This document shows, piece by piece, positions 26,866 through 27,565 of a DNA stretch of 64,000 nt. The notes under the pieces are model-generated. The model was not told the DNA's origin. It did no database searches and saw only the letters and a list, made by a program, of their open reading frames with translations. This DNA comes from Escherichia coli (GTDB lineage: Bacteria > Pseudomonadota > Gammaproteobacteria > Enterobacterales > Enterobacteriaceae). How positions within the stretch are numbered: the stretch's first letter is position 1; each line of letters opens with the position of its first letter. The stretch is taken from NCBI RefSeq assembly GCF_017348835.2, contig NZ_CP071375.1; one strand, given 5' to 3'. The translations under genes and the position numbers were made by a program.

Positions 26866-27252
26866 ACAGGCGGTAGCCTGGCAGCCTCGCAGAGCAGGAC
26901 GCCCTTGAGCCGCGATGCGGCGAATAGGGAGTGGTAAAGTTGGAACACCGTAGCGGTGGGCCCACTTTACATGTCCTGCCCTGCAGTTGCCGTTGTATAT
27001 CTGTGCACGACAATGTGTATTTCAGTGTACAGGATGTGTTTTCTTAGCGTATTAATATAGGATTACTGGAGTAAATTTCTGCAGCAAATGTGTTTTTTGC
27101 AAGGAAACTATATTTCTCCCTTTTGAAAATGACCTTTAGTAGTTATAAATGGACGTCCACCAACTGTATTTATGTTTCGATATATTGTAAGAAGTCTTTC
27201 ATTTTCCGATGCACTTTTTTACTTACCTTGTCAGAGCATGTGCATTGCAGAT

Positions 27253-27265
27253 TTTAGCGGCTAAA
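27253..27265. promoter_or_regulatory. 13-bp palindrome TTTAGCGGCTAAA (KorB operator-like), copy 2, in the mobC-like/repC-like intergenic region
   Basis: Exact repeat of the same palindrome, with identical A/T flanks (ATTTTAGCGGCTAAAAT). Confidence 0.5.
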
Positions 27266-27502
27266 ATCTGCCTCCCTATGCCTAAAGCTAGGGGCGTACC
27301 TCATATGTCATAAAATCTACCTCAAGTGTCAATATACCAAACGTGTAAGTAATCTCTTCTTCTGGCGTACAACCATCGGTCTTTGGCCGATTCTAGATTT
27401 GAAAGCGCCTGCTCAGGCAGGTGATTTCAAAGCCTGAATATACTGGTTGATCCTGAATAACCTGCAAAGGAGTTAAAAAATCAGGCCTCTGTAGCACACT
27501 GG

Positions 27503-27565
27503 CGGGCCGTTACAGCACATCACCGGGCCGTAACGACACGTTACCGGGCCGTTGTAGCTCGTTTT
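27503..27565. repeat. Three tandem ~21-bp direct repeats (iteron-like) with core CGGGCCGTT; candidate oriV
   Basis: CGGGCCGTTACAGCACATCAC / CGGGCCGTTACGACACGTTAC / CGGGCCGTTGTAGCTCG..., cores at 27503, 27524 and 27545, overlapping the 3' end of the repC-like gene. Confidence 0.55.

What the first reader, a model, noticed from the sequence alone, without database searches (positions are those of the whole stretch)
26866..27540. 675-bp non-coding region between the mobC-like and repC-like genes with dyad symmetry; candidate oriT/control region
No ORF of 60 aa or more lies here. It contains the palindrome copy at 27253 and an imperfect dyad at 27396-27433 (GATTTGAAAGCGCCTGCTCAGGCAGGTGATTTCAAAGC: TTTGAAA/TTTCAAA arms around a CCTGC..GCAGG hairpin), and ends in the iteron-like repeats. 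Being upstream of a mobC-like gene makes it a plausible nick site or relaxosome assembly region, despite the absence of a relaxase gene.
Basis: inference. Interest (0 to 1): 0.4.

Follow-up and report, generated by a model that had tools for sequence, protein, structure and literature searches.

The report
Island's transfer and replication origins
This gap between two genes of a truncated E. coli genomic island holds an IncP-plasmid-type transfer origin next to an IncQ-like replication origin, a layout already described for this island family, plus unreported look-alike binding sites for two helper-plasmid proteins.

Summary
The palindrome, the dyad, the 21-bp repeats and the lack of a conserved ORF are all present and exceed chance.

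The window is E. coli chromosome carrying an IS3-truncated, guaA-integrated PIME1-type integrative mobilizable element (Perta et al. 2026 preprint).

- **oriT.** It has 17-nt inverted-repeat arms and the core GTCCTG|CCC 8 nt beyond them. It aligns with the R751, pDS1 and p14EC001a oriT and matches Rfam traJ-II.
- **The cited dyad and repeats are not oriT.** The repeats (four 21-bp units, 27482-27565) and the dyad (27390-27439) belong to an IncQ-like oriV that starts at the stop codon of the initiator gene. The dyad's symmetry is kept by compensatory changes across the family.
- **The cited palindrome** (27247-27271) is an exact IncP KorB operator (OB).
- **Nearby repeats.** Two repeats at 27297-27331 resemble IncP TrfA iterons.

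The element encodes no KorB, TrfA, relaxase or primase. OB and TrfA-like sites track IncP-like transfer modules across related loci. I found neither described in the papers I searched. They may explain the helper interference the preprint reports.

The parts
First gene of the traJ-trbJ-trbK-trbL cluster.
   Evidence: NCBIfam TraJ equivalog NF010451 at 160 bits (cut-off 134); Pfam NikA-like 8e-23. RefSeq annotates it as traJ. 60% identical to TraJ of IncP plasmid p14EC001a and 47% to R751 TraJ.
26869..26899 (+). Conserved IncP oriT block, GGCGGTAGCC..GCAGCCTCGCAGAGCAGGA, on the traJ-proximal side of oriT.
   Evidence: Nearly invariant in the alignment with the oriT of R751 and pDS1. Also present in the p14EC001a oriT.
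26934..26970 (.). oriT inverted repeat: 17-nt arms GTAAAGTTGGAACACCG / CGGTGGGCCCACTTTAC with a 3-nt spacer. Predicted TraJ binding site.
   Evidence: the repeat finder pair I2, 82% complementary. It aligns with the R751 and pDS1 repeat. The p14EC001a arms are nearly identical. The preprint reports a 17-bp repeat for the PIME1EcRHB23-C07 oriT.
26973..26981 (+). nic core GTCCTG|CCC. The nick is predicted after G26978 on the + strand, 8 nt beyond the inverted repeat.
   Evidence: Invariant TCCTGCCC column block. pDS1 has the identical TGTCCTGCCC. The IncP-1 nic hexamer ATCCTG is cited from PMC3614916. The exact phosphodiester bond is inferred by homology.
26883..26981 (-). Match to Rfam RF01760 'traJ-II RNA'. 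It covers the same bases as the oriT repeat and nic.
   Evidence: cmscan 86.9 bits (gathering score 40), E = 4e-17, full-length match.
26982..27246 (.). AT-rich spacer, about 30-45% GC. Function not shown. It occupies the place of the traK-side half of an IncP oriT and must hold the traJ promoter.
   Evidence: Composition profile. The first 100-140 bp are shared with other E. coli PIME types that carry different replication modules. No convincing sigma-70 promoter was found. No conserved ORF.
27247..27271 (.). KorB operator (OB) of IncP-1 type: core TTTAGCGGCTAAA at 27253-27265 inside a perfect 25-bp palindrome.
   Evidence: The same 13-mer occurs 9 times in the first 50 kb of R751 and 13 times in p14EC001a. 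Consensus cited from PMC5577506 and PMC3614916. Invariant in 8 close relatives. Found 276-342 bp downstream of repC in 7 loci.
27297..27331 (-). Two TrfA-iteron-like repeats 21 bp apart: TGACATATGAGGTA and TGACACTTGAGGTA.
   Evidence: 3 matches in the window against 0.05 expected; two of them are here. The R751 and p14EC001a oriV iterons read TGACAnnTGAGGGGC (PMC3614916). Across 67 related loci there are 31 matches against 0.9 expected, all 183-693 bp downstream of repC, and most match the full 15-17 nt.
27354..27391 (-). Conserved hairpin plus block: ATCGGnC-nnn-GnCCGAT followed by GGTTGTACGCCAGAAG. Candidate single-strand initiation (priming) signal of the oriV.
   Evidence: Present in 30 of 69 loci checked, at the same position after the dyad. 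Many relatives carry a second, inverted copy 50-60 bp further on; the window clade has only one. The window's stem carries a private C-to-T change at 27380.
27390..27439 (.).
   Evidence: A positional homologue exists in every related oriV examined, with different sequence but retained symmetry. 94.5% of cells are paired, 7 of 14 pairs show changes on both sides, 0 of 500 shuffles reach this, and slid controls give 30-45%. Canonical IncQ plasmids pDN1 and pTC-F14 have a dyad at the same place after their AT-rich segment.
27433..27488 (.). AT-rich segment with about 10-bp CCTGAATA repeats and an A6/T6 run. Putative DNA-unwinding element next to the iterons.
   Evidence: Repeat family D10. The family-wide equivalent is TTTTTTGC..GCAGGATATTCAGGATAT.TCAGGATATCC, and pDN1 and pTC-F14 have ATCCAAGAATA(A/T)TCCAC. 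The unwinding role is inferred from the IncQ model (PMC8567376).
27482..27565 (-). Four 21-bp iterons (the first degenerate), starting within the 3' end of the initiator gene.
   Evidence: Four 21-bp iterons sit at the same place in PIME relatives and in the small plasmid pSMBC31-5K. Iteron sequence changes together with the initiator variant.
27541..28314 (-).
28331..29146 (-). RepA-family replicative helicase.
   Evidence: Pfam AAA_25 9e-29. RefSeq name 'helicase RepA family protein'.
26366..26378 (.). Second OB copy, inside the 5' end of trbJ.
   Evidence: R751 has an OB 14 nt into its own trbJ and p14EC001a has one at 8468 in trbJ.
30857..30869 (.). OB variant with central A (TTTAGCAGCTAAA), downstream of the luxR-like gene.
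31693..31705 (.). Fourth OB copy, between the int stop codon and the start of the 209-aa hypothetical gene.
   Evidence: An OB in the int/luxR gap recurs in many related loci, about 2.9 kb upstream of the repC end.

Best explanation
The 675-bp gap is the cis-acting core of a PIME1-type integrative mobilizable element. It holds two origins back to back, with two look-alike helper-protein sites between them.

**oriT (26869-26981).** This is an IncP-type origin of transfer. By inference from RP4 and R751, the element's own TraJ binds the 17-nt inverted repeat. A TraI relaxase supplied by a co-resident IncP-like plasmid then nicks the + strand after G26978. The strand is transferred 5' to 3', so oriV, rep and int enter the recipient first.

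**oriV (27354-27565).** This is an IncQ-like vegetative origin. The winged-helix initiator encoded just upstream binds four 21-bp iterons. No RepB-type primase is encoded, so priming must use a host or helper primase.

**Helper-protein sites.** Between the two origins lie an exact KorB operator and two TrfA-iteron-like repeats. The element encodes neither protein, so these most likely bind helper-encoded KorB and TrfA. That would couple the excised, replicating element to the helper's partition or regulation system and interfere with helper replication.

**What is shown and what is inferred.**
- Shown here: sequence homology, motif identity, conservation, covariation, and co-occurrence with IncP-like modules.
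- Shown by others on sibling elements: helper-induced excision and replication, a functional rep-oriV, and an IncP-like oriT.
- Inferred: every binding event, the nick position, the priming route, and the roles of the OB and TrfA-like sites.

In this strain the element is cut by IS3 and lacks a second attachment site, so the origins are probably stranded. They could still act in cis.
For: **Context.** The window is 100% identical to the E. coli PE164 chromosome. Gene order is guaA | int, hypothetical, luxR-like, alpA, repA, initiator, [gap], traJ, trbJ, trbK-like, trbL | IS3. These are the PIME1 hallmark genes.

**oriT.**
- Alignment with the oriT of R751 and pDS1 and of p14EC001a.
- Inverted repeat, with the nic core 8 nt beyond it.
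- Rfam traJ-II match at 86.9 bits.
- The preprint reports an IncP-like oriT with a 17-bp repeat and a conserved nic for PIME1Ec.

**oriV.**
- The same order (iterons, T-run, AT-rich repeats, dyad, hairpin plus GGTTGAACGCCAGG block) is seen downstream of the initiator in about 30 loci from many Pseudomonadota and, as far as the dyad, in IncQ-type plasmids.
- Dyad covariation.
- Initiator fold matches RctB and Pi.
- The IncQ mechanism is taken from PMC8567376.
- A functional rep-oriV with four iterons was demonstrated in PIME1Mm.

**Helper sites.**
- Exact OB: 56 exact copies in 28 of 76 loci.
- OB is present in 22 of 22 loci with IncP-like tra/trb genes against 6 of 54 without.
- TrfA-like repeats are present in 18 of 22 against 1 of 54.
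- 31 TrfA-like matches against 0.9 expected, all in the initiator-to-traJ gap.
- No KorB, IncC, KorA, TrfA, TraI or primase homologue in the window.

**Precedent and fit.** SGI1 carries mimics of its IncC helper's parS sites. The preprint reports that a replicating PIME lowers pB10 amplification by an unknown mechanism.
Against: - No experiment was done on this copy.
- The preprint found that the PIME1Ec oriT was only poorly mobilized by pB10 and pKJK5, so the cognate helper is unproven.
- The nic core has G where RP4 and R751 have A (GTCCTG against ATCCTG), although pDS1 shares the G.
- The initiator is not a canonical IncQ RepC by sequence: hhalign probability is 20% over 45 residues and there is no Pfam RepC hit.
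- The window's TrfA-like repeats read GAGGTA, not GAGGGGC. There are only two of them and they are 21 bp rather than 22-23 bp apart, so binding by a known TrfA is uncertain.
- The Morganella relative L086 has an OB only in trbJ and no TrfA-like repeat, so these sites are not universal.
- No promoter was detected near the OB, and no KorA operator exists in the island. KorB-mediated repression therefore has no obvious target.
- The related loci share ancestry, so the association counts overstate independence.
- The element is truncated and no attR was found.
Confidence: 0.8

Rival explanations
1. One reading: the palindrome at 27253 and the dyad at 27396-27433 are themselves the nick site or relaxosome assembly site.
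For: Both are real dyads in a non-coding gap upstream of a relaxosome accessory gene.
Against: The IncP-homologous inverted repeat and nic lie 270-450 bp away, at 26934-26981. The dyad travels with the initiator gene and its iterons, including on plasmids and islands that have a different oriT or none in that place. The palindrome is the KorB operator, which occurs many times around IncP plasmids away from oriT.
Confidence: 0.03
2. The conserved 26883-26981 segment works as RNA: a structured traJ 5' leader (Rfam traJ-II) that regulates traJ expression, rather than as a DNA transfer origin.
For: Strong Rfam hit on the traJ-sense strand. The segment lies between any upstream promoter and the traJ start, so it is probably transcribed.
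Against: The same sequence aligns base for base with the oriT region of R751 and other IncP plasmids, where oriT function is experimentally established. A DNA inverted repeat gives the same covariation signal as an RNA stem. The two roles are not exclusive.
Confidence: 0.1
3. The dyad is the transcription terminator of the repA-initiator operon.
For: It lies about 110 bp downstream of the initiator stop codon, is G+C-rich at its centre, and is conserved in position.
Against: No T-run follows it on either strand in any lineage. The terminator scan does not call it. It sits after the iterons and the AT-rich repeats, in the same order as in IncQ origins.
Confidence: 0.08
4. The OB and TrfA-like motifs are inert leftovers of the IncP ancestry of the transfer module and do nothing.
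For: The OB inside trbJ is at the same place as in R751 and p14EC001a, so at least that copy is inherited. The window's TrfA-like repeats deviate from the plasmid consensus. L086 lacks both in the gap.
Against: Exact 13-15-bp OB palindromes persist in non-IncP-derived parts of the element, after int and between oriV and oriT. They are found in lineages whose initiators are only 59-75% identical. Full-length TrfA iterons persist in many loci and only in this gap. The GAGGTA variant is shared by E. coli PIME types with different replication modules, with 22-bp spacing in L007. That looks like maintained specificity rather than decay.
Confidence: 0.25
5. In this strain the whole region is a dead relic with no present function, because the element is truncated.
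For: IS3 abuts trbL. No attR-type repeat was found. There are private substitutions in the hairpin stem (27380) and in the repeat arm (26963).
Against: All genes from int to trbL are intact ORFs and every cis element is intact. oriT and oriV act in cis and do not need excision to be nicked or fired. This rival concerns present activity, not what the sequence is.
Confidence: 0.4

Closest known systems
PIME1 elements (Pseudomonadota integrative mobilizable elements, subfamily 1; Perta et al., bioRxiv 10.64898/2026.01.12.698999), e.g. PIME1EcRHB23-C07 and PIME1MmNCTC12028
   Same: Same gene set and order: int, divergent luxR-like and alpA, repA, traJ, trbJ, trbL. Same guaA site as GIsul2 and the IncP island, which the preprint lists as resembling PIME1. 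IncP-like oriT with a 17-bp inverted repeat and conserved nic, and an iteron origin with four direct repeats plus AT-rich regions containing inverted repeats downstream of the replicase.
   Different: This copy is cut by IS3 after trbL, so it lacks the accessory region, and no second att site was found. I could not confirm that it is the same sequence as RHB23-C07, because that strain was not among the listed hits. The preprint does not mention KorB operators, TrfA-like iterons or the initiator that follows RepA.
oriT of IncP-1 plasmids (RP4/RK2, R751) and of enterobacterial IncP plasmids such as p14EC001a
   Same: Position directly upstream of traJ. Conserved blocks, an inverted repeat, and the TCCTG|CCC nic core 8 nt from the repeat. 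The repeat arms of p14EC001a differ from the window's at only a few positions.
   Different: No traK on the other side and no traI after traJ. 17-nt arms rather than 19. G instead of A at the first position of the nic hexamer, as in pDS1. Sequence beyond about 27000 is unrelated to the traK-side half of IncP oriT.
oriV of IncQ-family plasmids (RSF1010/pDN1, pTC-F14, pUL3AT, pSMBC31-5K)
   Same: A RepA helicase gene is followed by an initiator gene whose 3' end runs into 20-22-bp iterons, then an AT-rich segment with short repeats, then a dyad. The initiator is 62-65% identical to that of pUL3AT and pSMBC31-5K.
   Different: No RepB/MobA primase and no RepB'-type ssiA/ssiB hairpins. A different conserved hairpin-plus-block takes their place. 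The initiator is barely alignable to canonical RepC. The replicon is part of an integrated element rather than a plasmid.
SGI1 parS mimicry of IncC helper plasmids (Muranyi et al., NAR 2024, PMC10954446)
   Same: An integrative mobilizable element that replicates when its helper is present and carries copies of the helper's ParB-binding site without encoding the ParB. The preprint reports replication-dependent reduction of helper amplification by a PIME.
   Different: A different helper family (IncP KorB/IncC rather than IncC ParAB). Binding and function are untested here. PIMEs additionally carry replication-initiator (TrfA) iteron look-alikes.
Rfam RF01760 traJ-II RNA motif
   Same: Full-length, high-scoring match at 26883-26981 on the traJ strand.
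   Different: The matched bases are the IncP oriT repeat and nic. A DNA-level function explains the conservation, and an RNA function has not been shown (this last point is from my own recollection of the family description).

Membership tests
IncP-type oriT (MOBP, RP4/R751-like) | Lies immediately upstream of a traJ gene encoding the oriT-recognition RHH protein | tested here: met
   The traJ start is at 26865 or 26853 and oriT blocks begin at 26869. TraJ equivalog at 160 bits against a cut-off of 134.
IncP-type oriT (MOBP, RP4/R751-like) | Inverted repeat of about 19 bp next to nic | tested here: met
   17-nt arms at 26934-26950 / 26954-26970, 82% complementary, aligned with the R751 and pDS1 repeat. 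The preprint accepts 17 bp for PIME1Ec.
IncP-type oriT (MOBP, RP4/R751-like) | nic hexamer ATCCTG followed by C, a few nt 3' of the repeat | tested here: met
   GTCCTG|CCC at 26973-26981, 5 of 6 in the hexamer. It is identical to pDS1, and TCCTGCCC is invariant. Hexamer cited from PMC3614916.
IncP-type oriT (MOBP, RP4/R751-like) | Cognate TraI relaxase and TraK encoded beside it | tested here: not met
   No TraI or TraK homologue in the window. The origin must be served in trans.
IncP-type oriT (MOBP, RP4/R751-like) | Confers mobilization by an IncP helper; strand-specific nick | not testable with these tools
   The preprint reports low mobilization of the PIME1Ec oriT by pB10 and pKJK5. This copy has not been tested.
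IncQ-family oriV / replicon | Three to five 20-22-bp iterons directly downstream of the initiator gene | tested here: met
   Four 21-bp units at 27482-27565 overlapping the stop codon. Same arrangement in pSMBC31-5K and pTC-F14.
IncQ-family oriV / replicon | RepA hexameric helicase gene upstream of the initiator | tested here: met
   AAA_25 at 9e-29 and RefSeq name 'helicase RepA family'. 41-43% identical to RepA of pSMBC31-5K and pUL3AT.
IncQ-family oriV / replicon | Initiator is a RepC-family protein | tested here: inconclusive
   No Pfam or NCBIfam RepC hit. hhalign against canonical RepC gives probability 20%, E 0.0012, over 45 residues. On the other side, it is 62% identical to the protein in the RepC position of pUL3AT, typed IncQ2, and its fold is that of iteron initiators.
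IncQ-family oriV / replicon | RepB' primase with its ssiA/ssiB recognition hairpins | tested here: not met
   No RepB homologue in the window or in the PIME loci. The sequence after the dyad is unlike the pDN1 ssiA/ssiB.
IncQ-family oriV / replicon | AT-rich segment and dyad following the iterons | tested here: met
   27433-27488 and 27390-27439. Same order in pDN1 and pTC-F14.
PIME1 (Perta et al. 2026) | Co-occurrence of integrase, alpA, replicase, trbJ and trbL, with a divergent luxR-family regulator next to alpA | tested here: met
   RefSeq calls 29367-30431 a LuxR family regulator. Defining features taken.
PIME1 (Perta et al. 2026) | Complete element with both att sites and an accessory region | tested here: not met
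   IS3 directly follows trbL, and no repeat of 14 nt or more links the int-side junction to the other side.
KorB operator (OB) of IncP-1 plasmids | 13-bp palindrome TTTAGC(G/C)GCTAAA | tested here: met
   Exact match at 27253-27265, with the favoured T/A flanks.
KorB operator (OB) of IncP-1 plasmids | Bound by KorB; korB encoded on the same replicon | tested here: not met
   No KorB, IncC or KorA homologue in the window or in 76 related loci. Binding itself cannot be tested here.
TrfA iterons of IncP-1 oriV | 17-bp repeat with core TGACA(C/G)(T/A)TGAGGGGC | tested here: inconclusive
   The window copies match TGACAnnTGAGG and then read TA in place of GGGC. Relatives carry full matches.
TrfA iterons of IncP-1 oriV | Cluster of five or more iterons at 22-23-bp spacing with DnaA boxes, plus trfA in cis | tested here: not met
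   Two copies 21 bp apart and no trfA. R751 and p14EC001a have clusters at 22-23 bp.
Rfam RF01760 traJ-II RNA | Score above the family's gathering threshold | tested here: met
   86.9 bits against 40.

The most novel reading that the evidence does not exclude
PIME-type mobilizable islands carry decoy binding sites for two master proteins of their IncP helper plasmids: the KorB partition/silencing clamp (exact OB sites) and the TrfA replication initiator (iteron look-alikes placed between the island's own oriV and oriT). Once the island excises and amplifies, these sites would let it ride the helper's partition system. They would also titrate or handcuff TrfA, lowering helper copy number. That would give a mechanism for the unexplained helper 'incompatibility' in the 2026 preprint, and perhaps for how the island senses its helper. 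Rep-less E. coli relatives (L006/L007) with three 22-bp-spaced iteron look-alikes (L006 also with a DnaA box and KorA operators) could go further and replicate entirely on helper TrfA.
Probability: 0.4. Interest if true: 0.65.

Novelty: new member of a known kind. Interest (0 to 1): 0.42.

Why it matters
As an annotation result this is ordinary. It places a known kind of oriT and oriV on a truncated island and corrects which bases do what.

It also corrects several labels:
- 'mobC-like' is traJ.
- The database name 'ABC transporter ATPase' for the initiator is a misnomer.
- The Rfam 'traJ-II RNA' match coincides with the IncP oriT.

The part worth following up is the helper mimicry. Exact KorB operators and TrfA-iteron look-alikes sit in elements that encode neither protein, and they are tightly linked to IncP-like transfer modules. 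These give direct, cheap tests for how these widespread islands interact with IncP plasmids that carry resistance genes, mcr-1 plasmids included. One such question is why a replicating island depresses its helper.

The near-identical inverted repeat in p14EC001a-type plasmids also names a candidate natural helper for the E. coli islands, which pB10 and pKJK5 failed to mobilize.

Tried and rejected
1. **RSF1010 iterons.** I first took the TACCTCAWRTGTCA repeats for RSF1010 (IncQ-1) iterons, from memory. A search with the remembered sequence hit large conjugative plasmids. R751 and p14EC001a then showed the motif is the IncP TrfA iteron. The IncQ-1 idea was dropped.
2. **Reference records.** RP4 (BN000925), RSF1010 (NC_001740, M28829) and pB10 (NC_004840) are not in the collections. 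R751, pDS1, p14EC001a, pDN1, pTC-F14 and pCHE-A were used instead.
3. **Plasmid search.** A search with 26990-27600 found nothing. The oriV half has no plasmid counterpart at the nucleotide level.
4. **Promoters and terminators.** The scan gave nothing above the shuffled expectation and no traJ promoter.
5. **Small-protein hypothesis.** The 59-aa and 55-aa ORFs are frameshifted in relatives.
7. **Older literature.** The Rawlings and Tietze review and Honda 1991 could not be read.
8. **Prior reports.** A literature search for KorB or TrfA sites on GIsul2, the IncP island or PIME elements found none.
9. **Strain RHB23-C07.** I looked for it among the E. coli hits and it was not listed.
10. **attR.** I looked for a second attachment site and found none.
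Full report
**Where the window comes from.**
The region is 100% identical to the chromosome of E. coli PE164, and 109 complete E. coli genomes carry related DNA, always chromosomal. RefSeq annotation and my ORF list give the following order:

- guaA
- tyrosine integrase (31762-32952, -)
- a 209-aa hypothetical (31009-31638, -)
- a LuxR-family regulator (29367-30431, +)
- AlpA (29152-29403, -)
- RepA-family helicase (28331-29146, -)
- a 257-aa 'hypothetical protein' (27541-28314, -)
- the 675-bp gap
- traJ (26500-26865, -)
- trbJ (25625-26419, -)
- a small lipoprotein ORF
- trbL (24046-25446, -)
- IS3, then the chromosomal gene yfgG

This is the gene set that a January 2026 preprint uses to define PIME1 elements. 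PIME1 elements are integrative mobilizable elements that IncP plasmids induce to excise, replicate and transfer. GIsul2 and the 'IncP island' are older partial descriptions of the same broad family and integrate at guaA. Here IS3 abuts trbL, and I found no repeat linking the integrase-side junction to the other side. This copy is therefore truncated.

**The observation.**

- No ORF reaches 60 aa. The 59-aa and 55-aa ORFs are frameshifted in close relatives.
- The palindrome is perfect, with 12-nt arms at 27247-27271. Its 13-bp core (one mismatch allowed) occurs at four sites in the island, against 0.14 matches expected.
- The dyad at 27390-27439 folds better than 199 of 200 shuffles.
- The 21-bp repeats are real. 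By comparison with relatives they number four and extend to 27565, across the stop codon of the upstream gene.

**The transfer origin.**
The bases immediately upstream, 26869-26981, align with the experimentally defined oriT region of R751 and with that of pDS1. The alignment covers the block GCAGCCTCGCAGAGCAGGA, GCGAATA, an inverted repeat and an invariant TCCTGCCC.

In the window the repeat arms are 26934-26950 and 26954-26970 (17 nt). The nic core GTCCTG|CCC follows 8 nt later, at 26973-26981. The IncP-1 nic hexamer is ATCCTG (PMC3614916), and pDS1 shares the window's G at the first position.

The enterobacterial IncP plasmid p14EC001a, which carries mcr-1, has almost the same repeat arms. 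Its TraJ is 60% identical to the window's, against 47% for R751.

Rfam's 'traJ-II RNA' model matches exactly these bases at 86.9 bits. I read that as the same conserved DNA element under another name.

The preprint reports an IncP-like oriT with a 17-bp repeat for PIME1EcRHB23-C07, and it was poorly mobilized by pB10 and pKJK5.

No relaxase or TraK is encoded. By analogy with RP4, the + strand would be nicked and transferred with the oriV/rep/int side leading. This is inference.

**The replication origin.**
The 257-aa protein has no Pfam or NCBIfam family and is widely mislabelled 'ABC transporter ATPase'. Three results bear on its identity:

- It is 62-65% identical to the protein that follows RepA helicase on the small mobilizable plasmids pUL3AT (typed IncQ2) and pSMBC31-5K.
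- Against canonical IncQ RepC only a weak C-terminal profile match appears.

A scan of one genome per species returned 76 loci encoding relatives. Downstream of the gene, about 30 of them share one architecture:

- four 21-bp iterons that begin at the stop codon
- a T-run
- two or three ~10-bp CAGGATAT repeats
- a dyad
- often a second hairpin
- a hairpin ATCGGCC-nnn-GGCCGAT followed by GGTTGAACGCCAGG
- in many loci, an inverted second copy of that last unit

The window has this order at 27565 down to 27354, but lacks the optional hairpin and the second inverted unit. Canonical IncQ plasmids pDN1 and pTC-F14 show the same order (iterons, then an AT-rich repeat segment, then a dyad) before their RepB'-type ssi hairpins.

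Across 13 sequence variants of the family, 94.5% of positions pair. Seven of 14 pairs show changes on both sides. No shuffle of 500 reaches this, and slid controls give 30-45%. No T-run follows it, so it is not a terminator.

In IncQ plasmids, RepC binding lets RepA unwind the origin and expose hairpinned priming signals on both strands (PMC8567376). I propose the same logic here. The conserved hairpin-plus-block would replace ssiA/ssiB, because no RepB primase is present. The preprint showed that the rep-oriV segment of a sibling element, with four iterons, replicates a conditional vector in E. coli.

**The palindrome.**
TTTAGCGGCTAAA is the consensus operator of KorB, the ParB-family partition and silencing protein of IncP-1 plasmids (PMC5577506; PMC3614916). 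It occurs 9 times in the first 50 kb of R751 and 13 times in p14EC001a.

One island copy (26366) sits in the 5' end of trbJ, just as in both plasmids, so that copy is inherited. The other three lie in parts of the island that have no IncP counterpart.

Across the 76 related loci there are 56 exact copies in 28 loci and no KorA operator. No locus, and not the window, encodes KorB, IncC or KorA.

**The neighbouring repeats.**
Two repeats 21 bp apart at 27297-27331 read TGACATATGAGGTA and TGACACTTGAGGTA on the - strand. The TrfA iteron of IncP-1 oriV is TGACACTTGAGGGGC. R751 and p14EC001a carry clusters of it at 22-23-bp spacing.

In 67 related loci the core TGACAnnTGAGG occurs 31 times against 0.9 expected. 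Every occurrence lies 183-693 bp downstream of the initiator gene, and most match the full plasmid iteron. No locus encodes TrfA.

OB sites occur in 22 of 22 loci that have IncP-like tra/trb genes and in 6 of 54 that do not. For the iteron look-alikes the counts are 18 of 22 and 1 of 54. The loci are related by descent, so these counts overstate independence.

E. coli islands that share this oriT but have another replicon (L005) or none nearby (L006, L007) also carry OB sites and one to three GAGGTA-type repeats beyond oriT. In L007 the repeats are 22 bp apart. In L006 they come with a DnaA box and KorA operators, and part of that L006 region is homologous to the oriV of enterobacterial conjugative plasmids.

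**What these sites may do.**
This part is inference. SGI1 carries mimics of its IncC helper's parS sites. It uses them to be partitioned and to destabilize the helper (PMC10954446). The PIME preprint reports that helper pB10 amplification drops only when the island can excise and replicate, gives no mechanism, and does not mention KorB, TrfA or operators. Amplified OB sites and iteron look-alikes would be a simple cause.

Four points count against this reading:

- The window's repeats deviate from the plasmid consensus.
- One Morganella relative lacks both kinds of site in the gap.
- No promoter is evident near the OB.
- Nothing has been tested.

**Verdict.**
The finding is real. It resolves into a known arrangement, the oriT and oriV of a PIME1-type island, here in a truncated copy. 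The core result is a new member of a known kind. The helper-site mimicry is the only part that goes beyond the literature I could search.

Noticed in passing
window 25440-25631 (-): A 63-aa ORF between trbJ and trbL has a lipobox-like LAICSC. It sits where IncP plasmids encode the entry-exclusion lipoprotein TrbK. It is not annotated in the PE164 RefSeq record but is annotated as hypothetical in strain WP3-S18-ESBL-07 (L005).
   Followed up: partly
window 22602-23815 and 23816-24045: An IS3-family element directly abuts trbL and is followed by yfgG. The island therefore lacks its accessory region, and no attR-like repeat was found. From memory of the K-12 map, yfgH and yfgI also seem to be missing between yfgG and guaA.
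   Followed up: partly
window 30857-30869 and 31693-31705: Two KorB-operator copies bracket the 209-aa hypothetical gene, one of them with a central A. In many relatives a single OB sits in the short int/luxR gap, so the gene may be cargo inserted at a duplicated OB.
   Followed up: no
L006 7585-8200 and L007 7587-7930 (E. coli islands at tRNA-Thr/Ser): These islands share the traJ-trbJ-trbL-oriT module but show no rep gene in the stretch examined. They carry tandem OB sites and three TrfA-iteron-like repeats (22-bp spacing in L007). L006 also has a perfect DnaA box and two KorA operators (GTTTAGCTAAAC), and part of its region is homologous to the oriV of enterobacterial conjugative plasmids. 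This may be a satellite origin dependent on helper TrfA.
   Followed up: partly
L097 (p14EC001a, IncP mcr-1 plasmid) 35450-35620: Its oriT repeat arms and nic region are almost identical to the window's, and its TraJ is the closest plasmid TraJ found (60% identity). Plasmids of this clade are candidate natural helpers for the E. coli PIME1 elements that pB10 and pKJK5 failed to mobilize.
   Followed up: partly
window 27541-28314 (-) and homologues P0001-P0120: This widespread protein family is named 'ABC transporter ATPase' by NCBI and UniRef sources. It has no ATPase motifs detected by Pfam, and its predicted fold is that of a two-winged-helix iteron initiator. The name looks like a propagated misannotation.
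   Followed up: yes
window 26883-26981 (-): The Rfam family traJ-II (RF01760), filed as a cis-regulatory RNA, coincides with the IncP oriT inverted repeat and nic site. The family may describe a DNA element.
   Followed up: partly
window 27380 and 26963: These are private substitutions relative to all seven close relatives. A C-to-T change weakens the stem of the conserved oriV hairpin, and a T-to-C change lies in the right oriT repeat arm. Both fit drift in a stranded copy.
   Followed up: no
L008 (pSMBC31-5K) 2905-3150 and L039/L040/L042: Small IncQ2-like plasmids and some islands share nearly identical iterons (AGCGTGGCACACCCGCCCGAT) and AT-rich repeats. They diverge after the dyad: the plasmid has G+C-rich RepB'-type hairpins, while the islands have the ATCGGCC/GGTTGAACGCCA unit. 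This suggests a swap of the priming module when the primase gene was lost.
   Followed up: partly
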